A stretch of 64,000 nucleotides of DNA from Bacillota bacterium (GCA_040753155.1 JBFMEU010000004.1:1056-65055); one strand, 5' to 3'. Positions 680 to 64,000 are shown, numbered from the stretch's first letter. The notes: generated from the sequence alone by a model not told the origin. Numbers and translations are program-made.

Positions 680-801
680 GAAGACTTGGTTCAGGTGGGG
701 GTTTTAACCCCATCTGAACCTTAGTCGCACTTATTTCGAGTTTACAGCCTGTAAGACCCCGACCTAAGAGGGCGGGGTCTTACAGGCTGTGCGAAGATAA
801 A
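680..801 (+). repeat. family-C interspersed repeat, basal 122 bp form (two hairpins)
   Basis: It has hairpin ggttcaggtgggg..ccccatctgaacc and a roughly 20 bp stem acagcctgtaagaccccg..cggggtcttacaggctgt. It is flanked by tATAAA / gATAAA. The same sequence is nested in B copies at 44.2, 52.1 and 54.5 kb. Confidence 0.8.
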
Positions 802-8926: not shown

Positions 8927-9044
<118 letters not shown>

Positions 9045-15998: not shown

Positions 15999-16061
15999 AT
16001 CACTGGACTCGGCTAACATTCAGAGGGGGTTGAATCCCCCTCTGAATGAAGTCTCGTTCAA
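15999..16061 (+). repeat. family-A repeat, copy A3 (63 bp internal-deletion form keeping both termini)
   Basis: atcact is joined directly to ggactcggctaacattcagaggggg...cgttcaa. It is preceded by tttat. Confidence 0.85.
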
Positions 16062-16267
16062 GCTTTAGGCCAGCTTACTTTTACAGTTAACTTGCATTCC
16101 TCTTCATCTTCGTCAAATTTAATTTTATATTCCAGTTCAACGTCATCAGGCACATGGATTTCCTGACTCTCAATGTTCAGGCTGCCACCTCTTAAACCTC
16201 CCGCTACTTCCATGATAAATTTAATAAAGTCCTGCTTGCCGCCCGTAAATTTTTCTGAGAAATCCAT
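16058..16267 (-). CDS. amphi-Trp domain protein (small acidic protein)
   Basis: 69 aa ending ...KLTVKVSWPKA, with the pattern expected of the amphi-Trp family. Its stop codon is formed by the last bases of repeat A3. Confidence 0.55.
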   Translation of the reverse strand: MDFSEKFTGGKQDFIKFIMEVAGGLRGGSLNIESQEIHVPDDVELEYKIKFDEDEEECKLTVKVSWPKA

Positions 16268-16328: not shown

Positions 16329-16528
<200 letters not shown>

Positions 16529-17632: not shown

Positions 17633-17750
17633 TCCGCCCTAAGACCCCCGCCTCTGTAGGCGGCGGGTTTCAAAGGGCGGTTAAGTCCAGTATGGACTCG
17701 GCTAACATTCAGAGGGGGTTGAATCCCCCTCTGAATGAAGTCTCGTTCAA
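17620..17750 (+). repeat. family-A repeat, copy A4
   Basis: Full-length copy preceded by tttat. It bridges two cotS-like genes. Confidence 0.9.
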
Positions 17751-17772
17751 CCTAGCCGAAGGGGAGAAAAGA

Positions 17773-26700: not shown

Positions 26701-28101
26701 CGGCACAGCCGGCCGGTCGTAGCCGGGGCCTTTACACCGGCTAAAATCATCACCGAAAACAACAAAACCCTGGTGGTAAGCTCCCGGGGTGAAAAATATC
26801 CCCTAACCGACCCTCGGGTGCATGTCCTGGTTCCTTCCATGGGCGACCCGGGCTCACGGCTGCTGGCCGCCACCTTGCGGCACGTCGGGGTCAAGGCGTC
26901 GCCGGCGCCGTCCCCCACCAGCCTGGAGCTGAAGCTGGGCAAGGGCTATGCCTCGTGCAAGGAGTGCCTGCCCCTGATTTTAACCGTGGGCAGCCTGATG
27001 AGCTACCTGGAGACCAGGGTTGACAAGGATGAAATCCTGATTTACTTTATGCCGAAAACATCAGGGCCCTGCCGGTTTGGCCAGTACAATGTGCTGATGA
27101 AAAACCTGATTGCGAAGATGCGCTGCGAGAATGTGACCATGATTTCCCTGACCTCCGACAACAGCTATGCCGGCTTTGGGACCAACTTTTCCCTGCGGGC
27201 CTGGCAGTCGGTAATTATTGCCGATGTGCTGGAGGAAATTTACAGCGCGGTGCTCACCATGGCCAGGGACAGGGAAAAGGCCCTGGAGGTTTACAACCTG
27301 GTGTGCAAAAAAATTGTCTATAGCGTGGAAAGGGATGACTGGGAAGGGCTGCGGCGGGTTTTACAGCAGTCGGCCAGTGCCCTGATGACCATTGAAAAGG
27401 TCCGGGAGCTGGAACAGGTGCCGAAGGTGGCCTTAACGGGTGAAATCTATGTCCGCAGGGATGGCTTTTCCCGGCAGTATCTGGTGGAAAGGCTGGCCCG
27501 GGAGGGCATCATGGTCAAAACAGCGCCGGTGGCCGAGTGGCTATACTATTGTGACTATCTGGTCAAGTACAAATACGTGGTTCACGCCAACCTGAGGGAC
27601 AGGCTGCGGGTGTACGGGCTGCAGTATTTCAAAAAACACTACGAAAAGGCTATCAAGGAAATCATGGCCCGGAGCGGATTCTACCACATTCACCTGCTGG
27701 ATGTGGAAAGGATGATTGACAGCGTTGCCGACCTGATCTCGCCCAGGCTCACCGGGGAGGCCATCCTCACGGCAGCGGCCGCTTTTACCGAGCTGGTGGA
27801 GGATGTGGCCGGGGTAATCTCCCTGGGGCCCTTCGGCTGCATGCCCGGGCGGATTGCGGAGTCCATCGTCAACGGCCGGCTGAACGAGAAAAAAATAAAA
27901 GTGGCCCGGGATAAGGACCTGGTGGCCAGGGTTATGGAGCGTTACCCGTCCCTGCCTTTTCTGGCCATGGAGACGGACGGCAATGCCTTTCCCCAGAGCA
28001 TCGAGGCCAGGCTGGAGATTTTCTGCCTGCAGGTAAAAAGATTGCATGACCTGATAAGTGAAGTTAAGGCGGTCTTACAATTAAGAAATACTTTGACCTA
28101 A
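23788..28101 (+). CDS. fused BadF/BcrA/HgdC-type ATPase (x2) plus 2-hydroxyacyl-CoA-dehydratase-like domains (CoA-substrate-specific enzyme activase-related giant protein)
   Basis: 1437 aa with two acetate/sugar-kinase-fold ATPase modules (GLDVGSTTTKAVV, EIGGQDAKY) followed by long dehydratase-like regions. TTG start with an AGGAGG RBS. Confidence 0.75.
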   Translation: MKTLGLCIGASNISLVLAAGDEKGGVVVAQAGTIPHEGNPRQVIAGMIDDDLLRSVDGFAVTGRKLKNMLKAPSLAEPEAVEYAYRYLRETCPDAEAIVSAGGETFMAYGLDRSGQIINVHTGNKCASGTGEFFLQQIKRMDLSVQEAVVVADLDQPYIVAGRCSVFCKSDCTHALNKGASKGRVVAGLCRMMAVKITELLKKTRPRKVLLVGGASANTAMLSYLRQEIKELYIPAYATCFEALGAALWARERPVRPAGGCGDLFARGASSFSFLPPLKDFLPRVTFKEAARGAARAGDNCIVGLDVGSTTTKAVVLRTSDNAVLAGCYLRTSGDPVQAARNCYRELTNQLPEQINISGLGVTGSGRQIAGLHALTPAVINEIIAHAAAAVYYDPRVDTIFEIGGQDAKYTYLTNGVAADYAMNEACSAGTGSFLEEAAGESLDILTEDIGEVALGSARPPNFSDQCAAFICSDIKSAIQEGIEIEDLAAGLVYSIGLNYINRVKGNRAVGRKVFMQGGVCYNRAVPAAMAALTGKEIIVPPEPGLMGAFGVALEVKSKLALGLLPVMEFDLAELAAREVARGEPFTCAGGKERCDRKCLINIIQIKGKKYPFGGACNKYVNLIQDRQLLNTEQYDLVKLREKLVFDKYGRDWGARLLPPNNKTVAVNDALMTNTLFPLYYNFFQALGFEVISGGAVDRESVERRGAEFCFPVEIAHGTLGSLCKKSPDVYFLPHVKSMIVPGGIEASVTCPLVQAEPYYLKTTFDELKDKVVLSPVLNFSGGYEKERDTFVAIGRQLGIRARSAGRAFDLAVQAQRAFHNECRQRGEEFLAGLEANPGETAVVLFGRPYNAFTGKANMGIPQKFATRGYRIIPHDFLPYGGEEPDEGMYWAQGQMILKAAKLVQRHPQLFAAYITNFSCGPDSFLVGYFRDLMGQKPSLTLELDSHTADAGLDTRIEAFLDVVKSHMEINRHSRPVVAGAFTPAKIITENNKTLVVSSRGEKYPLTDPRVHVLVPSMGDPGSRLLAATLRHVGVKASPAPSPTSLELKLGKGYASCKECLPLILTVGSLMSYLETRVDKDEILIYFMPKTSGPCRFGQYNVLMKNLIAKMRCENVTMISLTSDNSYAGFGTNFSLRAWQSVIIADVLEEIYSAVLTMARDREKALEVYNLVCKKIVYSVERDDWEGLRRVLQQSASALMTIEKVRELEQVPKVALTGEIYVRRDGFSRQYLVERLAREGIMVKTAPVAEWLYYCDYLVKYKYVVHANLRDRLRVYGLQYFKKHYEKAIKEIMARSGFYHIHLLDVERMIDSVADLISPRLTGEAILTAAAAFTELVEDVAGVISLGPFGCMPGRIAESIVNGRLNEKKIKVARDKDLVARVMERYPSLPFLAMETDGNAFPQSIEARLEIFCLQVKRLHDLISEVKAVLQLRNTLT

Positions 28102-28108
28102 GACCAGG

Positions 28109-28138
28109 AGGGTTAAAACCCCGCCTGAACCAAGTCTT
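28109..28138 (-). repeat. family-C left-end fragment
   Basis: The reverse complement reads gaagacttggttcaggcggggttttaaccc and is preceded by tataaa, as in copy C1. It abuts the stop of the giant gene. Confidence 0.65.
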
Positions 28139-28921
28139 CTTTATAACCCTGCAAATACGTAAAGGTCCCCGAGTTTGTGGGTAAAGCTTGATTTGGCAGC
28201 CACTTCCTATGGAAAAGTAGAATTGAGTTTTGTTAGAATAGGTTAGATAGGGGGCATTAGATTTTGGAAGTAAACGAAAAAATACAATTAAAGCAGAAGG
28301 AATAATTTAAAACGCCACGAATATTTTCTAAAGGCATCCGTATCATTATGATCCTTTGCCCGTCAGTTTGGTGTCCTTGGTAGACAGCCCTGGCAGCGGA
28401 AAAATGGAGAGGGGAAAATTTTTACGTTCAGGGTTGTTAGCAATCACATATATTTATTAATTCCAAAGGAGGTATGAAGCAAGCAGTCACATCCGATGAT
28501 GCGTCGCAAAGACACGTTGTGAAAGTCGGGCGCGAAGGTTAGAACAACCAGGCGGCGGGTAACACCCCCTTCCGGGCAGAACGTACGGTTTATAGGCCGA
28601 CGGCGGGATTTCGCAAGAAAGACCACCCGGTACATAAGCGAAAGCTTATGGCTGAGCAGTTGAATCCTGTGACACTGCCTCTCGTTAGTCGACGGGAGAG
28701 AAATCTAGATAAATCTGATTTGTTTAGATTTCAGAAACCAGGTATGGAATAACCAGCAAAAACAGTCCGTTGTTTGATTGGATGACAGACTATAGTGGAC
28801 ATGCCGTGCCAAGTGCAGCCGTGCCGGCTGCCGGAGCTTGCTTCCCGGGGCTCCTGCCGGGGCCGGGAGTCGGGCTGTAATGATAAAAGGCGTCCTAGTT
28901 AACAAAAAGGAGGTATTGCTA

Positions 28922-35178: not shown

Positions 35179-35240
35179 GTAACTATTCAGGTATTCAGTT
35201 TCTCATTCTGACTACTGACTCCTGACTCCTGAGTAGTTAC
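35179..35240 (-). mobile_element. family-B element copy B4 (62 bp minimal form: the two TIRs only)
   Basis: gtaactattcaggtattcag-tttctc-attctgactactgactcctgactcctgagtagttac. A perfect 8 bp direct repeat cgccgtta lies on both sides. Confidence 0.85.
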
Positions 35241-43601: not shown

Positions 43602-43610
43602 GAGCTCAAT

Positions 43611-43787
43611 GTAACTACTCAGGAGTCAGGAGTCAGAAGTCAGGAGTCAGAATGAGAAAACCAGCAAAACATTTGAGATTTACTGATATGGCAGAAGGCG
43701 CACTTGTTCGTACTTGCGGTTTATCGTTTATCCATGGCGTTTCCGAAGTATGAGATATACGGTCCATTCTGACTCCTGAGTAGTTAC
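43611..43787 (+). mobile_element. family-B element copy B6 (both TIRs plus frameshifted gene 5' part)
   Basis: gtaactactcaggagtcaggagtcagaagtcaggagtcagaatgagaaaacc...attctgactcctgagtagttac. The flanking direct repeats are gagctcaat / gagttcaat (8 of 9). Confidence 0.85.
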
Positions 43788-43826
43788 GAGTTCAATTATT
43801 TCCAGTTCCCGCTGGCCGGTTTTCCG

Positions 43827-43855
43827 TTGACACTGCCGGCAACCCGTGCTATAAT
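43827..43855 (+). promoter_or_regulatory. consensus sigma-A promoter of the T-box leader
   Basis: TTGACA, 17 nt spacer, TATAAT. Confidence 0.75.
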
Positions 43856-43861
43856 TGGCGC

Positions 43862-44129
43862 TGAAGTCATTAAAGCACGGTTATGACGGGGAATAAGGGT
43901 TTAGGAGAATCTCTCAGCGAGCCGGGGTTGGTGCGAGCCTGGCAGAGGAATAAACCTGCCGCCACCCCTGAACTGCAGACCGAAACCCGCGGTAAACGCC
44001 GGGGGGATTAAGTCGGGCCGGCCGCCGCCGTTACCGGCTCCGAGAGGACTGTGCCTTGGCAGGTACAGTCAAGCAGGGTGGTACCGCGAGACATGGTCTC
44101 GTCCCTTAGGGGGCGGGACCTTTTATTTT
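43862..44129 (+). promoter_or_regulatory. T-box riboswitch leader
   Basis: Stem I elements (agcgagccggggttggtgcgagcc), the T-box sequence agcagGGTGGTACCGCG at 44071-44088, and terminator ggtctcgtccc/ggggcgggacc plus ttttatttt. I cannot assign the specifier codon confidently; the loop reads ggaauaaaccu. Confidence 0.8.
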
Positions 44130-44233
44130 GTAACTACTCAGGAGTCAGGAGTCAGGAGTCAGAATGAGAAAACCAGCGAAAACATTTGAAGATTTACTGG
44201 TATGGCAGAAGGCGCACCTGTTTGTATTTGCTG

Positions 44234-44358
44234 TTTATCTTCGCACAGCCTGTAAGACCCCGCCCTCGCATAAGGAAAGGGGACACACCTGCTGAAGCTT
44301 GGGTATTTCTCTGGGGACAGGAATGTCCCCAACGTATGGGTTAAAACCCCGCCTGAAC
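44234..44358 (-). repeat. family-C repeat nested in B8 (partly deleted)
   Basis: tttatcttcgcacagcctgtaagaccccgccctcgcataagg...gggttaaaaccccgcctgaac matches the reverse complement of 52086-52309, with an internal deletion between two ggaatgtccccaac repeats. Confidence 0.75.
44279..44330 (-). repeat. family-D hairpin module (split form)
   Basis: Reverse complement of ggggacattcctgtcccc...aggtgtgtcccc. Confidence 0.6.
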
Positions 44359-44422
44359 GTGACTCCTGACTCCTGAATTCTGAATACCTGAGTAGCTACA
44401 AGAAAGGAGTGATTACGGGATT

Positions 44423-44902
44423 ATGAAGGAAATACTTGAGCTGTTGGAATTCGATGCCAGGCTGACCGCCAATGAGATTGCCGTTATGCTGAACATGGAC
44501 CTGGCGGAAGTCCGGCGCTCCATCAAAGAATTGGAAGACAATAAAACCATTTTAAAGTACATTACCCTGGTGAACTGGGAAAAGGTCGGCGAAGAAAAGG
44601 TGAGCGCCTTTATCGAGGTGCGTACCACCCCCCAGCGGGATGTGGGGTTTGACGCCGTGGCCGAGCGAATCTACCGCTTTCCGGAGGTGCGCAGCGTCAG
44701 GTTGATGAGCGGGGTCTATGACCTGGCCGTGTTTATTGAAGGGCGGACGATGAAGGAAGTGTCCCACTTTGTATCCACCAAACTGGCCACCATTGAGGGT
44801 GTGGTCAGCACCACCACCCACTTTGTTTTAAAGACTTACAAGCAAGACGGCGTCATACTGGATGACGCAGAGGAAGATAGAAGGCTGGTGATATCGCCAT
44901 GA
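44423..44902 (+). CDS. Lrp/AsnC family transcriptional regulator
   Basis: 159 aa with an N-terminal HTH (LELLEFDARLTANEIAVMLNMDLAEVRRSIKELE) and a C-terminal RAM domain. Confidence 0.8.
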   Translation: MKEILELLEFDARLTANEIAVMLNMDLAEVRRSIKELEDNKTILKYITLVNWEKVGEEKVSAFIEVRTTPQRDVGFDAVAERIYRFPEVRSVRLMSGVYDLAVFIEGRTMKEVSHFVSTKLATIEGVVSTTTHFVLKTYKQDGVILDDAEEDRRLVISP

Positions 44903-46119
44903 CAACAAACTGGCAGGAAATGCTTAACCCCAGGGTGCGCAACATGCCCCCCTCGGGCATCAGGCGTTTTTTTGACCTGGTAACGGAAACCAAAGGGGTT
45001 ATTTCCCTGGGAGTTGGTGAGCCTGATTTTGTCACCCCCTGGCATATTCGGGAGGCCTGCATCTATTCCCTGGAAAAGGGCTTCACCATGTACACCTCCA
45101 ACCTGGGCCTGCTGGAGCTGAGGGAGGCCATAGCCCGGGATCTGGCGGGAAGTTACGGGGTAAAATACGACCCCCGGAGCCAGATTCTAATTACGGTGGG
45201 GGTTAGCGAGGCTTTGGACCTGGCCTTTCGGGCCCTGGTTTGCCCGGGTGACGAGGTGCTGATTCCGGAGCCCTCCTATGTTTCCTATGCGCCGGGTGTT
45301 ATCCTGGCCGGTGGGACGCCCGTAATGATGCCCACCACCATGGAGAATAATTTTCAACTGACTGCCCGGCAAGTGGAGGCAGCCATTACACCGGAGACCA
45401 AGGCCCTGTTATTGTGCTACCCCAACAATCCCACCGGCGCCGTTATGGGGCGGGAAGAACTGCTGAAAATTTCCGAGGTGGCCCGGGCCCGCAACCTGAT
45501 TGTGATTTCCGACGAGATCTACGATAAGTTGACCTATATTGGTGAGCATACCTGCCTGGCCGCTCTGCCGGAGATGCGGGAGCGGACGGTGCTGCTGAAC
45601 GGTTTTAGCAAGGCCTACGCCATGACCGGCTGGCGGGTGGGGTACGCTGCCGGCAATCCGGACTTTATTGAGGCCATGACCAAAATTCACCAGTATTCCA
45701 TGCTTTGTGCCCCCATCACCGCCCAGATGGCCGCCCTGGAGGCGCTGAAAAACGGCGCCGGCGGCATGCAGCGCATGGCGCAGCAGTACAACCGGCGCCG
45801 GCACCTGGTAATGCAGAGCTTCAAGGATATGGGCCTGCCCTGCTTTGAGCCCGGCGGCGCCTTTTACGCCTTTCCCCAGGTATCAATTACCGGCTTGAAA
45901 TCCGAGGCCTTTGCCGAGGAGCTTTTAAAAGAGGAGCAGGTGGCCGTTGTTCCCGGTAATGCCTTCGGCCCCTCGGGGGATGATTTTGTGCGCATTTCCT
46001 ATGCCGCCTCGGTGGACGATTTGGGTGAGGCCTTCCGGCGTATGGCCCGCTTTGTCCGCAGGCGCGGCGTCAAAGGCCGGGCCGGTTCTCATGTCATTCC
46101 CCTGGCTGCGGTAAAGTAA
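44899..46119 (+). CDS. class I/II PLP-dependent aminotransferase (aspartate/aromatic aminotransferase-like)
   Basis: 406 aa with NPTGAV and the SKAYAMTGWRVGY lysine motif. Its start overlaps the regulator stop. Confidence 0.85.
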   Translation: MTTNWQEMLNPRVRNMPPSGIRRFFDLVTETKGVISLGVGEPDFVTPWHIREACIYSLEKGFTMYTSNLGLLELREAIARDLAGSYGVKYDPRSQILITVGVSEALDLAFRALVCPGDEVLIPEPSYVSYAPGVILAGGTPVMMPTTMENNFQLTARQVEAAITPETKALLLCYPNNPTGAVMGREELLKISEVARARNLIVISDEIYDKLTYIGEHTCLAALPEMRERTVLLNGFSKAYAMTGWRVGYAAGNPDFIEAMTKIHQYSMLCAPITAQMAALEALKNGAGGMQRMAQQYNRRRHLVMQSFKDMGLPCFEPGGAFYAFPQVSITGLKSEAFAEELLKEEQVAVVPGNAFGPSGDDFVRISYAASVDDLGEAFRRMARFVRRRGVKGRAGSHVIPLAAVK

Positions 46120-46150
46120 CAGCTCAGGAAAACAGGTTGTAAACACAGGA

Positions 46151-46185
46151 GGCGGTTCTTACCTTGAGAGCCGCCTTTTTCCCGG
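46151..46185 (+). terminator. rho-independent terminator after the aminotransferase
   Basis: ggcggttct-tacctt-gagagccgcc followed by ttttt. Confidence 0.65.
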
Positions 46186-46190
46186 GTTGG

Positions 46191-46254
46191 TGAGTCAATG
46201 GGGACGGTTCCTGGTGACTCAGTTGAGTCACCAGGAACCGTCCCCATTGACTCA
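46191..46254. repeat. perfect 31 bp inverted repeat with a 2 nt spacer (64 bp palindrome)
   Basis: tgagtcaatggggacggttcctggtgactca-gt-tgagtcaccaggaaccgtccccattgactca. The core ggggacggttcc resembles the D-module core ggggacattcc. Confidence 0.9.
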
Positions 46255-46314
46255 AGGGGGTTTTTCAGAAATCTAGAAGGATTTTGTCAGATGACAGAGA
46301 ATTATATGTCTTTG

Positions 46315-46421
46315 ATCACTGAACTAATCCGCCCTAAGACCCCCGCCTCTGTAGGCGGCGGGTTTCAAAGGGCGGTTAAGTCCAGTATGGACTCGGCTAA
46401 CATAACACCGGTTTCGTTGAA
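46315..46421 (+). repeat. family-A repeat, copy A5 (third hairpin replaced or deleted)
   Basis: It matches A through ...ggactcggctaacat, then reads aacaccg-gtttcgttgaa. It is preceded by ttgat. Confidence 0.8.
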
Positions 46422-46549
46422 TGCAGGCGCCCGGGTTTTTTGGAGGTATAAGAGCCGGGGTTTAAAGGTTTTTCCGCCCTGGTTATTTTTATGTTCCTGG
46501 CGCCGCCCCGGGGTGTGCCGTCACCTAAGAGCAAGGAAGTGGAAAGCTT

Positions 46550-47848
46550 ATGATCTGGAATCAACAGCAAGAATGCATGAGCAGGGAGGAACTGCGCTCC
46601 CTGCAACTGGACCGGCTGAAGGAAACAGTAAGCCGGGTATACCACCGGGTTCCTTACTACCGGGAGCAATTGGACAGCCTGGGCCTGCGCCCGGCGGATA
46701 TTAACAGGCTGGAGGATGTACGGCTGCTCCCCTTTACAACTAAAACAGCATTGCGGGACAACTATCCCTACGGGCTATTTGCCGTGCCGATGAAAGAAAT
46801 CGTCCGGCTGCATGCCTCCTCGGGCACCACCGGCAAACCTACCGTGGTGGGCTATTCCCGCCGGGATCTCGGCACCTGGTCCGAACTGGTGGCCCGGGTG
46901 GTTACTGCCGCCGGGGTCGGGGACGGAGATGTGGCCCAGGTTTGTTTTGGCTACGGCCTGTTCACCGGCGCCTTTGGCCTGCACTACGGCCTGGAGCGGG
47001 TGGGCGCAGCCATTGTGCCCTCCTCGGTGGGCAACACGGAAAAGCAAATTATGCTCATGCAGGACTTTGGCGCCACTGTCCTGGTGGGCACCCCCACCTA
47101 TACGCTGCATATGGGCGAGGTGGCCAGGAACATGGGGGTGCGGCCGGGAGACCTTAAGCTGAGGGTGGGCCTGTTCGGCGCTGAGGTCTGGACCGAGAAT
47201 ATGAGGTCTGAGCTGGAGCAGCTGTGGGGCATCAAGGCCACCGACAACTACGGGCTCAGCGAGATCATGGGCCCCGGTGTGGCCGGCGAGTGCACAGCGT
47301 CCCCGGGCCTGCACATCAGTGAAGATCACTTCCTGGTGGAAATTATCGATCCCGATACCGGGGAATCCCGGGGCCCCGGTGAGGAAGGGGAGCTGGTGAT
47401 TACCACCCTGACCAAGGAGGCCCTGCCCATTATCCGCTACCGCACCCGGGACATCACCGTGCTGAATGAAGAGCCCTGCCCCTGCGGGCGCACCCACGCC
47501 CGGATGCGCAAGGTGCGCGGCCGCACCGACGATATGCTGATTATTTCCGGGGTTAATGTGTTCCCCTCCCAGATTGAAAGTGTGCTTATGGAAATCAGGG
47601 GGGTATCACCCCATTACCTGATTATCCTGGGCAAGAAGGGCTACCTGGATTATCTGGAAGTGCAGGTGGAGCTGACCGACGAGGCCTTTACCGGTAACTT
47701 CCGGGACCTGGAGGCTCTGGAGGCCCGGATCCGGGGCCGCCTGCAGAGCGTCCTCAGCATCAGCCCCAGGGTGCGCCTGATGGAGCCCCACTCCCTGGAG
47801 CGCAGCATGGGCAAAGCGGTGCGGGTAATCGACAACCGTCATAATTAG
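46550..47848 (+). CDS. phenylacetate--CoA ligase family (PaaK/F390 synthetase-like adenylate-forming enzyme)
   Basis: 432 aa. The [17 protein letters not shown]-binding motif and overall length are typical of PaaK. Confidence 0.8.
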
Positions 47849-47850
47849 AT

Positions 47851-47869
47851 GTCGGGCGTCGGAAAACCA
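47851..47869 (+). repeat. B'-type (GC-rich heptamer) end fragment
   Basis: gtcgggcgtcggaaaacca parallels B gagtcagaatgagaaaacca and the 50087-50110 array. It starts 3 nt after the paaK-like stop. Confidence 0.4.
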
Positions 47870-47923
47870 CCGTGCCGGTTCCTTTTAAGCCATAAGTTAG
47901 TCGAGTTGTTAGAGGAGTACTGG

Positions 47924-47951
47924 GCAGACAAGGGGACGTCCCCTTGTCTGC
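47924..47951. repeat. perfect 28 nt palindrome
   Basis: gcagacaaggggac|gtccccttgtctgc; the core is ggggacgtcccc. Confidence 0.85.
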
Positions 47952-47984
47952 CCCTGTCTGTGGTCCAGCCTGCCGGGAAACCTG

Positions 47985-48115
47985 TTGAACGAGACTTCAT
48001 TCAGAGGGGGATTCAACCCCCTCTGAATGTTAGCCGAGTCCATACTGGACTTAACCGCCCTTTGAAACCCGCCGCCTACAGAGGCGGGGGTCTTAGGGCG
48101 GATTAGTTCAGTGAT
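47985..48115 (-). repeat. family-A repeat, copy A6 (inverted orientation)
   Basis: Full-length reverse complement (ttgaacgagacttcattcagaggggg...ggattagttcagtgat), preceded in element orientation by ttaat. Confidence 0.9.
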
Positions 48116-48173
48116 TAACAAGGATTGCTTTTAAAACTTTTCAGTATCTGCCTGCCGGGTTATAATAATGTAA

Positions 48174-49904
48174 ATGTGGAAAGGGCTGATTCATTTGCAC
48201 AAGGAAGTTTTGGTGACGGCAACCGGTATAGTTGAGCAATACAGAACCCGGCTGGCAGAGTGTCTGGCCGCCGCCCTGGAGCGGGCTGGGCGGGAGGGCG
48301 GTTTGCCGGAGGTGGATCTGCCCCGGTTTGTGATTGATGCGCCCAGGGAGTCGGACCATGGTGATTTTGCCACCAACCTGGCCATGATGCTGGCCCGGCC
48401 CGCCAAAATGGCGCCGCAAAAAATTGCCGGGGCCCTCGTAAATAACCTGGACTTGAAAGGAACCCGGGTGGAGCGGGTGGAAATTGCCGGCCCCGGGTTT
48501 ATAAATTTTTATTTGGAACCTGGCTGGGCACTGGAGGCCCTGCCCCAAATCGAGCGGGAGGACGAAAACTACGGCCGGATCAGCCTGGGTAAGGGTAAAA
48601 AGGCGCAGGTGGAGTTTGTCAGCGCCAACCCCACCGGCCTGCTGCACATGGGCAATGCCCGGGGCGCAGCCCTGGGAGACAGCCTGGCGTCCATTTTAGA
48701 CTATGCCGGGTATGAGGTGGAGCGGGAGTTTTACATAAATGACGCGGGTAATCAAATAGAACACTTCGGCCGCTCCCTGGAGGCGCGGTATCTCCAGTTG
48801 CTGGGGCAAGAGGCGGAGGTTCCCGGGGAGGGCTATCACGGGGAGGATATCCTGGACACGGTCAAGGGGTTTGCCGCCCTGCACGGGGACAAGTACCTGG
48901 GGGCGAACGGGGAAGAGCGCCGCGGGGCGCTGGTTGAGTTTGCCCTGGCGGAGAAACTTGGCGCCATAAAAAAAGCCCTGACCGATTTCAACGTTCATTA
49001 TGATGTCTGGTTTTCGGAGCAGTCCCTCCATGACAGCGGCCAGGTGCGGCGGGCCCTGGACATGCTCCAGGAGCGGGGCTGCCTATACAGTCACGAGGAT
49101 GCCCTGTGGTTCAAGGCCACGGACTTTGGAGTGGAAAAGGATGAGGTGGTTGTCCGGAACAATGGGATACCCACCTATTTTGCCGCCGATATTGCCTACC
49201 ACTTGAATAAATTTGAGCGGGGCTTCCAGTGGGTGATCAACATCTGGGGGGCCGATCATCACGGTCATGTGCCCCGGATGAAGGCGGTGGTGGAGGCCCT
49301 GGGCTACGATCCGGAGAGCCTGCGCATAATTATCATGCAGCTGGTTCGCTTGTTCCGGGGCGGTGAGGTGGTGCGGATGTCCAAACGCACAGGGCAGTTC
49401 ATAACCCTGGAGGAGCTGGTGGAGGAAGTTGGCCGGGATGCGGCCCGCTATTTCTTTGTTATGCGCAGCTCCGACAGCCACCTGGAATTTGACCTGGACC
49501 TGGCCAAGAGCCATTCCAATGATAATCCGGTTTACTATGTCCAGTATGCCCACGCCAGGATCTGCAGCATCTTAAGGCAGCTGGCCGGGCAAGGCCGTCC
49601 CATGCCCCGGGCCGCCGAAGTAAACCTGGGTGTGCTGAGCAATGAGGCGGAGCTGGCCCTGGCCCGGCGCCTGGCCGATTTTCCTGAGGAAATCGGTGCT
49701 GCCGCAACACAACTGGCCCCGCACCGGATCGCCCGCTATATTCACGAAGTGGCCGGGCTGCTGCACAGTTTTTATAACAGTCACCGGGTGATTACCGATG
49801 ACCTGGCTGTCAGCAGCGCCCGGCTGGTTTTGGTGAACGCCGCCAGGGTGGTTTTGCGCAACGCTCTGAACATACTGGGGCTTTCAGCCCCGGAAAGAAT
49901 GTAA
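48174..49904 (+). CDS. argS: arginine--tRNA ligase
   Basis: SANPTGLLHMGNARG (HIGH-type) and the MSKRTG motif. The true start may lie a few codons downstream of 48174. Confidence 0.9.
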   Translation: MWKGLIHLHKEVLVTATGIVEQYRTRLAECLAAALERAGREGGLPEVDLPRFVIDAPRESDHGDFATNLAMMLARPAKMAPQKIAGALVNNLDLKGTRVERVEIAGPGFINFYLEPGWALEALPQIEREDENYGRISLGKGKKAQVEFVSANPTGLLHMGNARGAALGDSLASILDYAGYEVEREFYINDAGNQIEHFGRSLEARYLQLLGQEAEVPGEGYHGEDILDTVKGFAALHGDKYLGANGEERRGALVEFALAEKLGAIKKALTDFNVHYDVWFSEQSLHDSGQVRRALDMLQERGCLYSHEDALWFKATDFGVEKDEVVVRNNGIPTYFAADIAYHLNKFERGFQWVINIWGADHHGHVPRMKAVVEALGYDPESLRIIIMQLVRLFRGGEVVRMSKRTGQFITLEELVEEVGRDAARYFFVMRSSDSHLEFDLDLAKSHSNDNPVYYVQYAHARICSILRQLAGQGRPMPRAAEVNLGVLSNEAELALARRLADFPEEIGAAATQLAPHRIARYIHEVAGLLHSFYNSHRVITDDLAVSSARLVLVNAARVVLRNALNILGLSAPERM

Positions 49905-49920
49905 TGGGGGGTGCGTCTTC

Positions 49921-50085
49921 GTGCGTGAAATAATTCTTGCTGTTCTCACCGGGTTTGTGGTGGGCATGATTTTTGCCAAGCTCAAGCTGCCGATTCCGGC
50001 GCCCCCCACCCTGGCCGGGGTGCTGGGCATTGTAGGCCTTTTCCTGGGGTACCTGGTGGGCACGAGATTGGGTTGGGGACAGTAA
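49921..50085 (+). CDS. XapX-domain (DUF1427) small membrane protein; not in the ORF track
   Basis: GTG start, 54 aa: VREIILAVLTGFVVGMIFAKLKLPIPAPPTLAGVLGIVGLFLGYLVGTRLGWGQ. The KLPIPAPP motif is as recalled for the XapX domain. Confidence 0.55.
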   Translation: MREIILAVLTGFVVGMIFAKLKLPIPAPPTLAGVLGIVGLFLGYLVGTRLGWGQ

Positions 50086-50086
50086 T

Positions 50087-50325
50087 GGGCGTCGGACTTC
50101 GGGCGTCAGAAAAAGCAAGGCACAGATACATATTGACACAGTTCGCTATACGGAGATAGAATATTGAAGTGATTGACAGAGAAGCCACCCGATATTTGTC
50201 AGAATAAGCAAGTTCTTTTATTTCTATGCAGACAGCATCATTGACCCCATGGGTGGTTTTTGAAGGTACAGGCTTTGGTTTAAAGGGTCTTGGGACTTCC
50301 GACGTCTGACGCCCGACTTCTGACG
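50087..50325. repeat. B'-type inverted heptamer arrays bracketing the pyrG upstream region
   Basis: Left gggcgtcggacttcgggcgtcaga (50087-50110) and right gggacttccgacgtctgacgcccgacttctgacg (50292-50325) are imperfect inverted repeats with 7 nt periodicity. TTGACA-N17/18-TAGAAT lies between them. Confidence 0.6.
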
Positions 50326-50335
50326 ACCAAAATAG

Positions 50336-51952
<1,617 letters not shown>

Positions 51953-52122
51953 ACCGACCACACTTTACTTCAGCTTTGGTATGGCCAAAGCTTTTGTTAC
52001 TATTCAGGTATTCAGAATTCAGGAGTCAGGATTCAGAATGGACCGTAGATCTCATACTTCGGAAACGCCATAGATAAACGATAAAGAAGACTTGGTTCAG
52101 GTGGGGTTTTAACCCATACGTT

Positions 52123-52153
52123 GGGGACATTCCTCCGAAGGAGGTGTGTCCCC
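52123..52153 (+). repeat. family-D hairpin module
   Basis: ggggacattcctcc-gaa-ggaggtgtgtcccc replaces catctg in the basal C hairpin loop. Confidence 0.7.
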
Positions 52154-52212
52154 TGACCGCTAAACCTTAGTCGCACTTATTTCGAGCTTACAGCCTGTTA
52201 ATCCCATTAGTT

Positions 52213-52264
52213 GGGGACATTCCTGTCCCCAGAGAAATACCCAAGCTTCAGCAGGTGTGTCCCC
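52213..52264 (+). repeat. family-D hairpin module (split/extended form)
   Basis: ggggacattcctgtcccc-agagaaatacccaagcttcagc-aggtgtgtcccc lies inside the long C hairpin. Confidence 0.6.
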
Positions 52265-52445
52265 TTTCCTTATGCGAGGGCGGGGTCTTACAGGCTGTGC
52301 GAAGATAAACCGCAAGTACGAACAGGTGCGCCTTCTGCCATACCAGTAAATCTTCAAATGTTTTCGCTGGTTTTCTCATTCTGACTCCTGACTTCTGACT
52401 CCTGACTCCTGAGTAGTTACAAGTTTTTTTTGAGGAGGGGTTTGC

Positions 52446-53393
52446 ATGAAGCGCAAGGTAATAGCCGCGGCTGTAATTGCCGTGGTCCTGATTTCCCTGG
52501 TGGCAGCCTCCGCCCGCCTGGCCAGCCGGGATTTAATGGCTGCAGGGGCGGGCAAAGACCGGGTGGCCGTACTGCATATCAGCGGGGTGATTATGGGGGG
52601 CAAGGGTGTAGGCGGCCTTTTCGGGGCAACCACCGGGGCTGACGATATGATGGGCCTGCTGCGGGAGGTTGGCCGGGATCCCTCCATCAAGGCCGTGGTG
52701 TTAAGAATTAACAGCCCTGGCGGCACCACCGGGGCCTCCCAGGAACTGGGCATGGAAATAGAGAGGCTGCGGGAGTCGGGGGTGGTAGTGGTCGCCTCCA
52801 TGTCTGATGTGGCAGCCTCCGGGGGCTACTGGATTTCAGCCTGCAGCGACTACATTATGGCCTCACCCGGCACAACCACCGGCAGTATCGGGGTGATTAT
52901 TGAAACCCAGGACCTGCAGGGCCTGTATGATAAATTGGGCATAGACAGCGACGTATTCAAGAGCGGGCCCCATAAAGACATGGGTTCCCCCAACCGGGAC
53001 CTTACGCAAACCGAAAGGGCCATTTTGCAGGGCATGGTGGATGATCTGTACCAGCAGTTTGTTGACGTAGTGGCCAAAGGGCGGGACCTGGACCGGGCGC
53101 AGGTGCTGGAGATTGCTGACGGGCGGGTCTTTACCGGCCGCCAGGCCATGGAGGCCGGGCTGGTGGATGAAATGGGGAATTATTATGATGCCGTGGCCAA
53201 GGCCGCGGAGTTGGCCGGCATCGAGGGTGAGCCGGAAATTTATGAGCTTGAACCCCTTGGGGGCTGGCAAAGCTTGCTGGGTGAAATTCGCCTGGGCCGG
53301 CTGGCGGGTCCCTGGCAGCAGCAGCCCGTCCCTGTGCCCGCAGGACTGTGGCTGCTGGACCCCAACCTGCCGGCGGGATATTATGCCCGGTAG
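52446..53393 (+). CDS. sppA: signal peptide peptidase SppA (36K type)
   Basis: 315 aa with an N-terminal TM helix and the GGYWISA serine motif region. Confidence 0.85.
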   Translation: MKRKVIAAAVIAVVLISLVAASARLASRDLMAAGAGKDRVAVLHISGVIMGGKGVGGLFGATTGADDMMGLLREVGRDPSIKAVVLRINSPGGTTGASQELGMEIERLRESGVVVVASMSDVAASGGYWISACSDYIMASPGTTTGSIGVIIETQDLQGLYDKLGIDSDVFKSGPHKDMGSPNRDLTQTERAILQGMVDDLYQQFVDVVAKGRDLDRAQVLEIADGRVFTGRQAMEAGLVDEMGNYYDAVAKAAELAGIEGEPEIYELEPLGGWQSLLGEIRLGRLAGPWQQQPVPVPAGLWLLDPNLPAGYYAR

Positions 53394-53409
53394 ATATACT
53401 CATCTTATT

Positions 53410-53520
53410 CCTGCAGCAGGTACCTATCACCTTGGCTCAAGAGCTGCGAAAATTGGGGACATTCCCCACAGGGGTGTGTTCCCATACCTAAGCCAAAGAC
53501 TTGCGGCTCGTCGTTAAGCG
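53410..53520 (+). repeat. family-E repeat, copy E2 (left arm only, with a D module inserted)
   Basis: cctgcagcaggtacctatcaccttggctcaagagctgcg-[D]-gccaaagacttgcggctcgtcgttaagcg aligns to 33446-33513. Confidence 0.7.
53455..53483 (+). repeat. family-D hairpin module inside E2
   Basis: ggggacattcccc-aca-ggggtgtgttccc. The 43 nt insert at 53449-53491 is absent from E1. Confidence 0.6.
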
Positions 53521-53583
53521 TTGAGAACCAGTGATTTTTCCCAATATATGTATTTTAGCCGTTGCTTGAGAGGGGGCATCTTC

Positions 53584-54372
53584 ATGGCGGAAGATAAACA
53601 GCAGTCCAGTAGCATGGAACCCGGGGATGCGGGCGACGCGGCGATTGACCTGAACCAGGACAAGGACAGCGGTAAAGACCCGGTTGCTGCGGGGCTGGCT
53701 GGCGGTGAGGCCTGCCCCATTGATTCGGGCGCACTGGTACCGGGCCGGGAGGGGCTATTGGAACTGATCTACGGGGTGCTTTTTGACCCGGCCAATACCT
53801 TTCGCTGTATTGCCCCCCGGCCGCCAATACTGTTAACTTTAATTATTTTTTCCCTTTTGAACTTAACCCTCTCCCTGATGGGGTATATTGTTATTGCCAG
53901 ACTATTTTTTGCCGATGTCGCAACACCCCTGGCCAACTGGTATTTGCACGGTCTGGGTCCGCTTCTGGTGCTGGGGGGGCTTGCTGTTCACTATACCAAA
54001 TGGTTTGTTTACAGCGGTTTGCTAAACCTGCTGGCAGAGCTACTGGGGGGCCGGGGCCGGGCCCGGAGTGTTTTTGTTGTTTACGGGCTGGCCGGAATTC
54101 CCACCGCCCTGATGGCACCCGTCCTGATGCTGTTTTTAGTCATCCTGCCGCCGGGCTTTCCCGGCCTTCCCCTGGCGGTACTTACCGCCCTGGGGGTGGT
54201 TGCCTGGAGTACGGCGCTCCTGGTGGTGGGGATCAGGGAGGCGCACAGCCTGTCCACCTACCGGGCCGCCCTGGTGGTTGCAACTCCGGTGGCTGCCCTG
54301 TTTATAGCCCTGATCTGCGGTTTTTTGTTGTTAATAGCCATTTCGGCCCGGCTGTACACTTTGTTCGGCTAA
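53584..54372 (+). CDS. Yip1-family multi-pass membrane protein
   Basis: The ATG at 53584 has a GAGGGGG RBS. A low-complexity N-terminus is followed by LLELIYGVLFDPANTF and five TM helices. Confidence 0.5.
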   Translation: MAEDKQQSSSMEPGDAGDAAIDLNQDKDSGKDPVAAGLAGGEACPIDSGALVPGREGLLELIYGVLFDPANTFRCIAPRPPILLTLIIFSLLNLTLSLMGYIVIARLFFADVATPLANWYLHGLGPLLVLGGLAVHYTKWFVYSGLLNLLAELLGGRGRARSVFVVYGLAGIPTALMAPVLMLFLVILPPGFPGLPLAVLTALGVVAWSTALLVVGIREAHSLSTYRAALVVATPVAALFIALICGFLLLIAISARLYTLFG

Positions 54373-54513
54373 TATTATTTGGCCGGCCTGAAGGGATTTC
54401 TTTCCATAGCAGCGAATGCATATCATTATTATTCAGGTATTCAGAATTCAGGAGTCAGAATTCAGAATAACCGTATATCTCATACTTCGGAAACGCCATG
54501 GATAAACGATAAA

Positions 54514-54637
54514 GAAGACTTGGTTCAGGTGTGGTTTTAACCCATACGTTGGGGACATTCCTCCGAAGGAGGTGTGTCCCCTGACCGCTAAACCTTAGTC
54601 ACACTTATTTCGAGCTTACAGGCTGTGCGAAGATAAA
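54514..54637 (+). repeat. family-C repeat nested in B10 (124 bp form; long hairpin collapsed)
   Basis: gaagacttggttcaggtgtgg...cgagcttaca|ggctgtgcgaagataaa. The deletion lies between cttaca repeats. Confidence 0.75.
54551..54581 (+). repeat. family-D hairpin module
   Basis: Identical to 52123-52153. Confidence 0.7.
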
Positions 54638-54782
54638 CCGCAAGTACAAACAGGTGCGCCTTCTGCCATACCAGTAAATCTTTAAATGTTTTTGCTGGTT
54701 TTCTAATTCTGACTCCTGATTTAAAAAAGGATTTTTCTCTTATAACGGCGTATGTATATTAATCATAAATTTATAAGCAGCC

Positions 54783-58874: not shown

Positions 58875-59043
58875 GTAACTACTCAGGAGTCAGGAGTCAG
58901 TAGTCAGGAGTCAGAATGAGTCTTGGATACGGTGATATTTACGAAACAAAACTTCTCTTGTAAGAGGTTGGTAAATTGCTGGAAGCATATTCTCGGGGCA
59001 TTCTGAATTCTGACTCCTGAATTCTGAATACCTGAATAGTAAC
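58875..59043 (+). mobile_element. family-B element copy B7 (both TIRs plus the 3' end of the four-helix-bundle gene)
   Basis: The left TIR runs up to atgag, then LGYGDIYETKLLL-EVGKLLEAYSRG-like C-terminal coding remnant, then the right TIR. A perfect 8 bp direct repeat cctgatta lies on both sides. Confidence 0.85.
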
Positions 59044-63898: not shown

Positions 63899-63903
63899 GC
63901 TTC

Positions 63904-64000
63904 ATCACTGAACTAATCCGCCCTAAGACCCCCGCCTCTGTAGGCGGCGGGTTTCAAAGGGCGGTTAAGTCCAGTATGGACTCGGCTAACATTCAGAGGG
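63904..64000 (+). repeat. family-A repeat, copy A7 (cut by the window end)
   Basis: atcactgaactaatccgccc...ggctaacattcagaggg, preceded by ttcat. It starts 6 nt after the radical SAM gene stop. Confidence 0.9.

What the first reader, a model, noticed from the sequence alone, without database searches (positions are those of the whole stretch)
44130..54719. Three-level nesting (D inside C inside B) and deletion derivatives give a relative chronology of the repeats
**Shared insertion.** In B9 (51996-52420) the gene remnant is split at GATAAA by a 224 bp family-C element (52086-52309). That C element carries two family-D hairpin modules which are absent from the basal 122 bp C copy at 680-801. 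B10 and B8 carry the same C insertion at the same position.

**Distinct deletions.**
- B10 has lost the long C hairpin between two cttaca repeats.
- B8 has lost about 90 nt between two ggaatgtccccaac (D) repeats, plus the B segment up to the right TIR.

**Implication.** Either the B::C::D composite was itself copied to three loci after the nesting events, or it is a preferred recombination product. B9 still has flanking 8 bp repeats, which favours the first reading. This is an unusually explicit record of serial colonisation of one small element by others.
Basis: seen in the sequence. Interest (0 to 1): 0.65.

Follow-up and report, generated by a model that had tools for sequence, protein, structure and literature searches.

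The report
Nested mini-transposons that move together
Three sites in this bacterial chromosome carry copies of one small non-coding transposon that has two other kinds of tiny hairpin elements nested inside it. Closely related strains show that the whole nest was inserted as a single unit, which makes it a clean but fairly ordinary example of mobile-DNA nesting.

Summary
B9 (51996-52420) is a 200-bp inverted-repeat element (B) interrupted after GATAAA by a 224-bp hairpin element (C, 52086-52309). C carries two palindromic modules, D1 at 52118-52159 and D2 at 52206-52277. B10 and B8 have the same junction plus deletions between direct repeats.

**New evidence.**
- Three assemblies 99.6-99.9% identical to the window lack B9 precisely. 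They keep one copy of an 8-bp target that flanks B9 on both sides (7/8 match), so the composite moved as one unit.
- At least four further composite loci exist in metagenomes of the same species.

**Revised chronology.**
- Free-standing C+D1+D2 elements with the same junctions occur in Desulfotruncus and related MAGs, so D entered C before C entered B.
- The 122-bp copy is not demonstrably basal.
- "Same position" is weak evidence. C always sits next to ATNAA, and B has only two such sites, both on one strand.

**What the elements are.**
- B is an internally deleted four-helix-bundle (23S-IVS-like) gene cassette with heptamer-repeat ends and 8-bp duplications.
- C resembles IS200/IS605-type non-autonomous elements.
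- D is REP-like.
- No transposase was identified for any of them.

These are new members of known kinds, of moderate interest.

The parts
51996..52420 (+). B9: intact composite B::C::D1::D2 (425 bp) with both terminal inverted repeats
   Evidence: It is absent as a unit from L001, L002 and L003.
51988..51995 (.). Left copy of the 8-bp target duplication of B9 (AAGCTTTT)
   Evidence: The empty site reads ..GGCCAAAGCTTTTTTTGAGG.. in L001/L002/L003.
52421..52428 (.). Right copy of the target duplication of B9 (AAGTTTTT, one C>T change)
52086..52309 (+). Family-C element (224 bp) inside B9. The register is ambiguous by 6 nt (an equally valid reading is 52080-52303). It abuts the second ATAAA of B.
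52118..52159 (+). D1 palindromic module (42 nt) inside hairpin 1 of C
   Evidence: Compared with the D-less C in L098.
52206..52277 (+). D2 palindromic module (~72 nt) replacing the tip of hairpin 2 of C
52248..52379 (-). Remnant of a four-helix-bundle (PF05635) gene: 24 codons of B reading on into C/D2. The RBS and ATG lie in the heptamer block of the B end.
54425..54719 (+). B10: composite with a 100-bp deletion between the two CTTACAG repeats, two changed bases in the left terminus and a truncated right end. It is fixed in all strains seen.
   Evidence: (L101)
54514..54637 (+). C remnant of B10 (hairpin 1 + D1 at 54546-54587 + linker; hairpin 2/D2 deleted)
44130..44399 (-). B8: composite with a 90-bp deletion between the two GTTGGGGACATTCCT repeats (a D1/D2 fusion at 44266-44335) and a ~58-nt deletion removing the inner left arm of B and the left B::C junction. 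It has no target duplication and is present in both strains.
680..801 (+). Free-standing short (122 bp) C element with two strong hairpins
   Evidence: -44.6 kcal/mol, z -11.75
28066..28145 (-). Divergent or partial C copy (left hairpin module) preceded by TATAAA
53451..53483 (+). Free-standing D-like palindrome (TTGGGGACATTCCCCACAGGGGTGTGTTCCCA) in the sppA-yip1 spacer
16329..16528 (+). Reference uninterrupted B copy (200 bp) with an 8-bp duplication GTGCCAAG/GTGCCAAT. It carries both ATAAA sites (positions 79 and 86).

Best explanation
B8, B9 and B10 are copies of one composite non-autonomous transposon.

**The carrier (B).**
- B is a miniature element with ends GT[T/A]ACT followed by about five tandem heptamers, A[G/T]TCAG[G/A], in inverted orientation. 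It makes 8-bp target duplications.
- It is an internally deleted derivative of a cassette that, in full-length form, holds only a 121-aa four-helix-bundle (23S-rRNA-IVS-protein family) gene.

**The passenger (C).**
- C is a hairpin-ended element without terminal inverted repeats that always lies immediately 5' of ATNAA.
- Read on the other strand, it lies 3' of TTNAT and itself ends in TTTAT. That is the layout of IS200/IS605-type 'peel-and-paste' elements and their gene-less derivatives.
- Each of C's two hairpins carries at its tip a REP-like palindromic module (D1, D2) of a family that also occurs alone.

**Order of events.**
1. Inferred from other genomes: D modules entered C long ago, and C+D1+D2 circulated as a free element.
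2. Inferred: such a C landed beside the second ATAAA of a B copy.
3. Shown for B9, inferred for the others: the composite was mobilised through B's ends by a transposase supplied in trans. B9 is a recent insertion that is still polymorphic.
4. Shown: older, fixed copies (B8, B10) lost internal segments by deletion between 15-nt and 7-nt direct repeats. They also lost or mutated their termini, which should make them immobile.

The enzymes that move B, C and D were not identified.
For: **Composite moved as a unit.**
- L001 (JGI 3300040748), L002 (SRR6231011) and L003 (SRR22746113) are 99.6-99.9% identical to the flanks. They read GGCCAAAGCTTTTTTTGAGG where the window has AAGCTTTT-[425 bp]-AAGTTTTT.
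- L004, L005, L006 and L092 carry the filled allele.

**B is a true TIR/TSD element.**
- Perfect 8-bp duplications flank the copies at 8926-9044, 35204-35240, 58875-59043 and L103. They are 7/8 at 16329-16528, 43610-43792 and B9.

**More composite loci with different flanks.** L097 = L102, L099, L100 and L098.

**Enrichment of C in B.**
- 3 of the 5 C copies in the window lie in B, although B holds only 14 of 191 ATAAA sites.
- The binomial P is 0.0035.

**C target rule.**
- In 88 copies the left side reads NATAAA and the right side reads ..GAT+NAA.
- The sister family A is inserted in a B copy exactly 5' of the first ATAAA, with no duplication (L103).
- ISGst2 and ISGst5 of Geobacillus use TTTAT and TTCAT as the adjacent motif, and gene-less PATE-like copies exist there (PMC10055086).

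**Hairpins.**
- C-short folds at -44.6 kcal/mol with z = -11.75.
- Five pairs of hairpin 2 show compensatory changes across species.
- C-long keeps both basal stems with D on top.

**C::D predates B::C.** All four D states and D1/D2 fusions occur in other genomes. The identities are given.

**D as an independent family.** About 11 free copies occur at unrelated loci, plus 53451-53483 in the window.

**B's origin.** PF05635 matches at E = 1.6e-5. The full-length cassettes L105 and L109 have the same heptamer ends.
Against: - Only B9 has an assessable target duplication. B8, B10 and the complete composite L102 have none or have damaged ends.
- No donor copy identical to B9 was found. The closest is 98.7% over 237 nt (L100).
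- L098 carries a D-less C at the same site and shares private SNPs (TTTTAATCC, GTCACAC) with the D-bearing L097/L102. SNPs among composites are reticulate. So a single-origin, purely transpositional history is too simple.
- No transposase with matching ends was found for B or C. The one IS605 copy seen in D. arcticus (L066) has unrelated ends.
- C's two hairpins are unlike each other, whereas in classical IS200/IS605 elements the two end hairpins resemble each other (my knowledge, not tested).
- Strand bias of C versus GC skew is only 2:1 (44:22, p = 0.009).
Confidence: 0.75

Rival explanations
1. Independent hits. Free C+D1+D2 elements inserted separately into three (or more) pre-existing B copies, always at the same place, because B offers only two permissible target motifs.
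For: - C is strictly associated with ATNAA.
- B has exactly two such sites on one strand, so a repeat hit at the same site and orientation has probability about 1/2.
- L098 shows a different C form at the same site.
- An unrelated B-like element in D. arcticus (L091) independently holds a C at another ATAAA.
- Family A used the other ATAAA of B (L103).
Against: - At the B9 locus the whole of B plus C is absent from the empty alleles, not C alone.
- C is rare outside B in this window. Finding 3 of 5 copies in 7% of the ATAAA sites has P = 0.0035.
- All D1-bearing composites of this species share the CTAAACC variant.
Confidence: 0.12
2. Ectopic gene conversion. B copies were already at the three loci, and the C::D insert spread between them by homologous recombination, using the ~90- and ~110-bp B arms.
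For: - SNP sharing among composites is reticulate. Examples: ATAACCG is shared by B10 and L102, CCATAG by B9 and L102, and GTCACAC by B10, L097 and L098.
- The four combinations of D1/D2 presence across C copies also suggest recombination in the conserved linker.
- B8 and B10 have no duplications to argue otherwise.
Against: - It does not explain B9, where the empty allele lacks B altogether.
- The homology arms are short.
- It still needs a first composite.
Confidence: 0.1
3. There is no third level. D1 and D2 are not foreign elements but lineage-specific expansions of C's own hairpins. The long form would then be ancestral, and the 118-122-bp form a deletion derivative.
For: - D modules sit at the same two positions in two divergent C backbones, the arcticus type and the CAGCCTG type.
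- The D2 'insertion' is not a clean insertion: it replaces ~14 nt of the hairpin tip.
- C is demonstrably deletion-prone.
Against: - D-type palindromes with the same conserved ends (TTGGGGACATTCC...GGTGTGTCCCC plus TTAG..CTTA or CGTT..GACCG flanks) stand alone at unrelated loci in several genomes and at 53451-53483.
- A D1-like unit is nested in the loop of another D1 in L100.
- The short form is by far the commonest: 48 of 66 copies in D. arcticus, and it is also the form in Oceanobacillus.
Confidence: 0.2
4. C is a structured cis-regulatory or small RNA gene family rather than a mobile DNA element.
For: - C has very stable conserved hairpins with covariation.
- Many copies end 10-40 nt upstream of an RBS and start codon.
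Against: - No Rfam family matches at gathering or relaxed thresholds.
- Orientation relative to neighbouring genes is mixed: 33 copies oppose both neighbours and 21 match both.
- There are dozens of near-identical copies per genome at unrelated loci, with a fixed adjacent pentamer.
- C occurs inside another repeat.
Confidence: 0.05

Closest known systems
Bacterial MITEs (miniature inverted-repeat transposable elements), including nested MITEs
   Same: B is short and non-coding for any transposase. It is multi-copy, bounded by terminal inverted repeats and flanked by fixed-length (8-bp) target duplications. It shows a presence/absence polymorphism between strains, and other small elements are nested inside it.
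   Different: - B's ends are built of tandem heptamers.
- Its interior is a remnant of a four-helix-bundle gene, not of a transposase gene.
- No cognate insertion sequence is known.
- From memory, GTAA-starting inverted repeats with 8-bp duplications recall the IS66 family. This is a lead that was not tested.
IS200/IS605-family non-autonomous elements (PATEs) and their TAM/TEM logic, e.g. ISGst2 (TTTAT) and ISGst5 (TTCAT) of Geobacillus stearothermophilus (PMC10055086)
   Same: - C and its sister family A have no terminal inverted repeats.
- They have subterminal hairpins at both ends.
- They have a fixed pentamer next to one end (TTNAT) and a similar pentamer as the last bases of the other end (TTTAT in C).
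- No duplication is demonstrable for family A.
- Gene-less copies are present in high number.
   Different: - No TnpA or TnpB with matching ends was found.
- The two end hairpins of C are dissimilar.
- The middle base of the adjacent pentamer is free.
- Strand bias is only 2:1.
- For C the 6-nt register ambiguity cannot exclude a short duplication.
REP / REPIN elements (repetitive extragenic palindromes; PMC3116915, PMC3733652)
   Same: D modules are 33-75-nt imperfect G+C-rich palindromes with conserved stems (GGGGACA/TGTCCCC). They are dispersed in intergenic DNA, and the loop is variable.
   Different: - D lacks the GTAG or CGTC head that defines the two REP superfamilies.
- No RAYT gene was seen.
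- D is found preferentially at the tips of other elements' hairpins.
23S rRNA intervening sequences with an S23p / four-helix-bundle ORF (e.g. Coxiella burnetii IVS, PMC4990558)
   Same: B and its full-length relatives combine a PF05635 ORF, a variable number of tandem heptamers immediately upstream of the start codon, and flanking inverted repeats able to form a long stem.
   Different: - B copies lie in ordinary intergenic DNA, not in helix 25/45 of 23S rRNA.
- They are flanked by 8-bp duplications.
- The ORF is truncated to ~38 codons.
Very small mobile repeated elements (small dispersed repeats) of cyanobacteria (Elhai et al. 2008)
   Same: As I recall that paper, these are tiny palindromic repeats found nested in one another and inside other mobile elements, often preserving hairpins. 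This is the behaviour D shows here. I know the paper from memory; only its title was seen, in reference lists.
   Different: The phylum, sequence and size are different. The comparison rests on memory and was not tested.

Membership tests
MITE (for B) | Terminal inverted repeats | tested here: met
   GTTACTATTCAGG.../...CCTGAGTAGTTAC plus inverted heptamer blocks in all intact copies
MITE (for B) | Target-site duplication of constant length | tested here: met
   The 8-bp duplication is perfect in 4 copies and 7/8 in 3 copies. The empty site for B9 confirms it.
MITE (for B) | No transposase gene inside; many copies | tested here: met
   Copies are 170-200 bp and hold only a 38-codon PF05635 remnant. 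There are 10 copies in 64 kb and 58 clusters of remnant peptides in public data.
MITE (for B) | Cognate autonomous IS with the same ends | not testable with these tools
The full-length relatives L105 and L109 carry only the four-helix-bundle gene.
IS200/IS605-type non-autonomous element / PATE (for C) | No terminal inverted repeats; subterminal hairpins at both ends | tested here: met
IS200/IS605-type non-autonomous element / PATE (for C) | Insertion next to a specific 4-5-nt motif, with a similar motif as the element's far terminus | tested here: met
   88 copies show NATAAA on one side and GAT+NAA on the other. C and A occupy the two ATAAA sites of B.
IS200/IS605-type non-autonomous element / PATE (for C) | No target-site duplication | tested here: inconclusive
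   For the sister family A in L103 there is no duplication. For C in B, GATAAA lies on both sides, so a duplication of up to 6 bp cannot be excluded from sequence alone. In free copies the two sides often differ, which argues against a duplication.
IS200/IS605-type non-autonomous element / PATE (for C) | A Y1 HUH transposase (TnpA) in the same genome acting on matching ends | tested here: inconclusive
Its ends do not resemble C. The window's own genome is not available.
IS200/IS605-type non-autonomous element / PATE (for C) | Strong orientation bias relative to replication | tested here: inconclusive
   44:22 relative to local GC skew in D. arcticus (p = 0.009) and 16:11 in other genomes
REP / REPIN (for D) | Short imperfect palindrome, dispersed, extragenic | tested here: met
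REP / REPIN (for D) | Conserved GTAG or CGTC head | tested here: not met
   D copies begin ..TTAGTTGGGGACA or ..ACGTTGGGGACA. Neither tag is present. The tags are as defined in PMC3733652.
REP / REPIN (for D) | Associated RAYT gene | not testable with these tools
   This needs the whole genome. Nothing of the kind was found in the ~0.8 Mb of loci held.
23S rRNA IVS / S23p element (for B) | PF05635 ORF preceded by tandem heptamers and bounded by inverted repeats | tested here: met
   The Coxiella description is in PMC4990558.
23S rRNA IVS / S23p element (for B) | Located within a 23S rRNA helix and excised by RNase III | tested here: not met
   All B copies here are intergenic between protein genes. 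There is no rRNA in the window.

The most novel reading that the evidence does not exclude
The carrier element B would show that four-helix-bundle (S23p) cassettes of the kind known as 23S rRNA intervening sequences are active transposons. They would make 8-bp target duplications, perhaps with the four-helix-bundle protein itself as a mobility factor, since full-length cassettes encode nothing else. The D modules would be a new kind of ultra-small element that seeks the tips of DNA hairpins, including those of other mobile elements. The passengers could thereby be spread by a carrier that uses a different transposition chemistry.
Probability: 0.25. Interest if true: 0.65.

Novelty: new member of a known kind. 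Interest (0 to 1): 0.4.

Why it matters
**For annotation.**
- It explains ten or more repeat-filled intergenic regions in 64 kb of an uncultured Desulfotomaculia-like bacterium.
- It also accounts for dozens of spurious 22-69-aa "four helix bundle protein" calls in public MAGs.

**For mobile-DNA biology.**
- It is a clean, population-supported case in which a hairpin-type (probably single-strand) element and its REP-like riders are propagated as passengers of an inverted-repeat element.
- It shows that nesting order cannot be read as time order when the inner composite already exists as a free element and insertion is target-specific.

**The wider point.** The link between B and the S23p-ORF intervening sequences is the part that could matter more widely. 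The origin and mobility of those sequences has been an open question since the 1990s (PMC4990558). Here a relative shows target duplications and an insertion polymorphism.

Tried and rejected
- **Rfam.** I searched at gathering and relaxed thresholds. Only a T-box and a tRNA were found, and no family matches B, C or D.
- **Cis-regulatory RNA idea for C.** Rejected, because orientation versus neighbouring genes is mixed.
- **L055 as a candidate autonomous C.** The left end is followed by unrelated DNA, so it is only a truncated end.
- **L066 IS605 copy as C's partner.** Its ends do not match.
- **Segmental duplication.** The flanks of B8, B9 and B10 share nothing.
- **Window proteins near repeats.** No transposase was found; 30-506 is a PD-(D/E)XK fragment.
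- **Exact look-up of the B9 composite ORF.** It is not on record.
- **Source genome.**
  - The closest is D. arcticus, at 77% over 2.6 kb.
  - So no genome-wide census of this organism was possible.
- **Literature.**
  - Searches for described repeats in Desulfotomaculum, or for four-helix-bundle elements with target duplications, found nothing relevant.
  - The one targeted read of the REP paper (PMC3733652) for Desulfotomaculum, Firmicutes or nesting found no mention.
- **Clean insertion rule for D.**
  - I tried to derive one from three filled/empty comparisons.
  - The D1 event looks like a clean 42-nt insertion.
  - The D2 and L100 events are replacements or copies that include flanking bases.
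  - No rule could be stated.

Full report
**What is there**

The window is chromosomal DNA of an uncultured Bacillota bacterium.
- The genes around the finding include a T-box leader, an AsnC-type regulator, argS, pyrG, sppA and rho.
- The same strain is present in ENA assembly ERZ22146367, where L092 is 100% identical over 17.8 kb.
- The closest cultured genome among the fetched loci is Desulfotruncus arcticus, at 77% over 2.6 kb.

Self-comparison finds ten copies of family B in 64 kb.
- Seven copies are assessable for a target duplication: six in the window (the intact copies, B9 among them) and L103, a copy from a related strain. All are flanked by 8-bp duplications.
- The duplications are ATACCAAA, CGCCGTTA, TAATCAGG and AACCAATT (perfect) and three 7/8 cases.
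- Each end is GT[T/A]ACT followed by about five tandem heptamers, A[G/T]TCAG[G/A], in inverted orientation.
- On the minus strand, the heptamers supply an RBS and ATG for a 38-codon open frame. This frame matches the first 30 positions of PF05635, the 23S rRNA intervening-sequence / four-helix-bundle protein family (E = 1.6e-5; NCBIfam).

**Check of the observation**

- B9 (51996-52420) is B plus 224 bp at 52086-52309, between CGATAAA and CCGCAAG.
- The insert is the 122-bp element of 680-801 plus two blocks. One is a 42-nt block in hairpin 1 (D1, 52118-52159). The other is a ~72-nt block at the tip of hairpin 2 (D2, 52206-52277).
- B10 has both junctions and D1. It lacks the 100 bp between the two CTTACAG repeats.
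- B8 (minus strand) has the right junction. It lacks the 90 bp between the two GTTGGGGACATTCCT repeats and a further ~58 nt that include the left junction.
- The flanks of the three loci are unrelated.

**The decisive new evidence**

Exact-protein look-ups of the neighbouring sppA gene returned contigs from other samples.
- Three of them (JGI 3300040748, SRR6231011, SRR22746113) are 99.6-99.9% identical to the window on both sides.
- They read GGCCAAAGCTTTTTTTGAGG where the window has AAGCTTTT-[B9, 425 bp]-AAGTTTTT.
- Four others carry the filled allele.

The whole composite is therefore one insertion/excision unit, bounded by B's ends and an 8-bp duplication. In the 99.6-99.7% identical strain from JGI sample 3300040748, B10 and B8 are present with the same structure. 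They are therefore older, fixed copies, and B9 is the young one.

A scan of JGI metagenomes with the right B::C junction found four more composite-bearing contigs of the same species at other loci. A peptide that reads from B into C led to a complete composite in a 55-kb contig (L102).

C is over-represented in B. Three of the five C copies in the window lie in B, although B holds only 14 of 191 ATAAA sites (P = 0.0035).

**What C and D are**

A scan of reference genomes with C's left end gave more than 85 loci. Most are in D. arcticus. Others are in D. alcoholivorax, in five MAGs and in one Oceanobacillus.

*Features of C.*
- In 88 copies with both ends, the left side is NATAAA and the right end is ..GAT followed by NAA.
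- The sister family A has the same architecture and occurs five times in the window.
- In L103, family A is found inside a B copy as a 62-nt insert exactly between CCATGG and ATAAACG, with no duplication.
- Both families therefore sit immediately 5' of ATNAA. On the other strand they lie 3' of TTNAT and end in TTTAT (C) or GTTCAA (A).
- This is the adjacent-motif / encoded-motif layout of IS200/IS605 elements. Geobacillus ISGst2 and ISGst5 use TTTAT and TTCAT and have gene-less PATE-like relatives (PMC10055086).
- C-short folds into two very stable hairpins (-44.6 kcal/mol, z = -11.75). Hairpin 2 keeps pairing through compensatory changes in five pairs across species.
- Orientation relative to genes is mixed, and no Rfam family matches. 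I therefore read C as mobile DNA, not as an RNA gene.

*Limits on membership of IS200/IS605.*
- No matching TnpA was found. The one IS605 copy seen has other ends.
- C's two hairpins differ from each other.
- Strand bias is only 2:1.

*Features of D.*
- D modules are imperfect palindromes, GGGGACA...TGTCCCC, with conserved outer flanks.
- About eleven stand alone at unrelated loci in other genomes, and one stands alone in the window (53451-53483).
- In C they sit on top of preserved basal stems.
- One metagenome copy has a D1-like unit inside the loop of D1, a fourth level of nesting (L100).
- D lacks the GTAG or CGTC tag of classical REPs (PMC3733652).

**Revised chronology**

- C occurs in other genomes in all four states (no D, D1 only, D2 only, both), and as D1/D2 fusions of the B8 type.
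- B9's C aligns over its whole length with free C+D1+D2 copies of D. arcticus, D. alcoholivorax and BRH_c8a (84-88%).
- Its D2-bearing part is 97-98% identical to free copies in MAG Soudan_19.
- D-in-C is therefore older than C-in-B, and the 122-bp copy is not shown to be basal.
- B has exactly two ATNAA motifs, both on one strand. "Same position and orientation" is thus expected half the time for independent hits and cannot carry the argument alone.
- L098 is a B with a short, D-less C at the same site. It shares private SNPs with a D-bearing composite, and SNPs among composites are reticulate.
- At least one further event took place: a second insertion, gain or loss of D modules, or recombination between copies. 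I cannot resolve which.

**Deletions**

- Both deletions in B8 and B10 lie between direct repeats (15 and 7 nt).
- Similar deletions recur in other genomes.
- This fits slippage in hairpin-rich DNA. That mechanism is inferred.

**Origin of B**

- All 58 close homologues of the B peptide in public data are truncated, at 22-69 aa.
- Some of them read into nested C (P0050) or nested A (P0035, P0051).
- Longer queries reach intact 121-aa genes.
- In those genes the start follows tandem heptamers, and the last codons run into the inverted heptamer block that is B's other end (L105, L109).
- The Coxiella 23S intervening sequence likewise has an S23p ORF preceded by a variable number of heptamers and bounded by inverted repeats. 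Its origin as a transposable element has been only a hypothesis (PMC4990558).
- Searches of the paper library for a link between such cassettes and target duplications found nothing.

**Verdict**

- The elements are undescribed members of known kinds: an inverted-repeat MITE, an IS200/IS605-like gene-less element and a REP-like palindrome.
- Nesting and piggy-back mobilisation are known phenomena.
- The enzymes that move the elements remain unidentified.

Noticed in passing
L105:470-1010; L109:200-1000; window B copies: Intact 121-aa four-helix-bundle (PF05635) genes in other Bacillota are framed by the same heptamer-repeat ends as B. In Phosphitispora fastidiosa the upstream array is about 400 bp long. 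The full-length cassette encodes nothing but this protein, yet its deletion derivative B shows 8-bp target duplications and an insertion polymorphism. The Coxiella 23S intervening sequence has the same ORF-plus-heptamer design.
   Followed up: partly
window 7352-7491, 11143-11282, 17614-17753, 46309-46445, 63901-64000; short modules at 16004-16064 and 47985-48019: Family A is a ~140-bp hairpin element with the same architecture as C. It is flanked by TT[C/G/T]AT on one side and ends in GTTCAA. Its 62-nt hairpin module occurs alone and, in a related strain, inside a B copy at the other ATAAA site (L103).
   Followed up: partly
window ~46210, inside the perfect palindrome 46186-46250: The 99.6% identical JGI strain has extra DNA inserted in the stem of this long terminator-like palindrome (end of L093, start of L001). 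The inserted element was not identified.
   Followed up: no
window 43610-44422: Two B copies bracket a T-box leader (43874-44109). B8 lies between the leader's terminator and the RBS of the AsnC-type regulator gene (44423). Read-through transcripts must therefore cross 270 nt of hairpin-rich repeat.
   Followed up: no
L100:~680-760 (minus strand): A D1-like unit is nested in the loop of another D1, which makes four levels of nesting. It carries 2 + 4 nt of its usual C flanks (AT...CTGA). This looks more like copying by template switching than like clean transposition.
   Followed up: partly
L098 (Ga0048257_102739), minus strand ~8440-8748: A B copy carries a short, D-less C at exactly the same site as the D-bearing composites. 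It shares private SNPs (TTTTAATCC, GTCACAC) with one of them. This is unexplained: it could be a second insertion, gain or loss of D modules, or gene conversion.
   Followed up: partly
L091:3396-3640 (D. arcticus): A different B-like heptamer-ended element holds a deleted C at another ATAAA. This is an independent C-in-B nesting in another species.
   Followed up: no
L072:4117-4240 (Oceanobacillus sp. Castelsardo): A 124-bp C-type element with a conserved hairpin 1 and linker but a covarying hairpin 2 occurs in a member of the Bacilli. The family therefore spans two classes of Bacillota.
   Followed up: no
L019, L079 (MAG Soudan_19) versus window 52160-52309: The D2-bearing part of C is 97-98% identical between this organism and a MAG with which the window shares no other match longer than 400 bp among the fetched loci. 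This suggests recent horizontal spread or strong constraint.
   Followed up: no
window 8926-9044: This B copy has no interior at all. It consists of two ends with an expanded heptamer array (about 12 units) and a perfect 8-bp duplication, so heptamer number is unstable.
   Followed up: no
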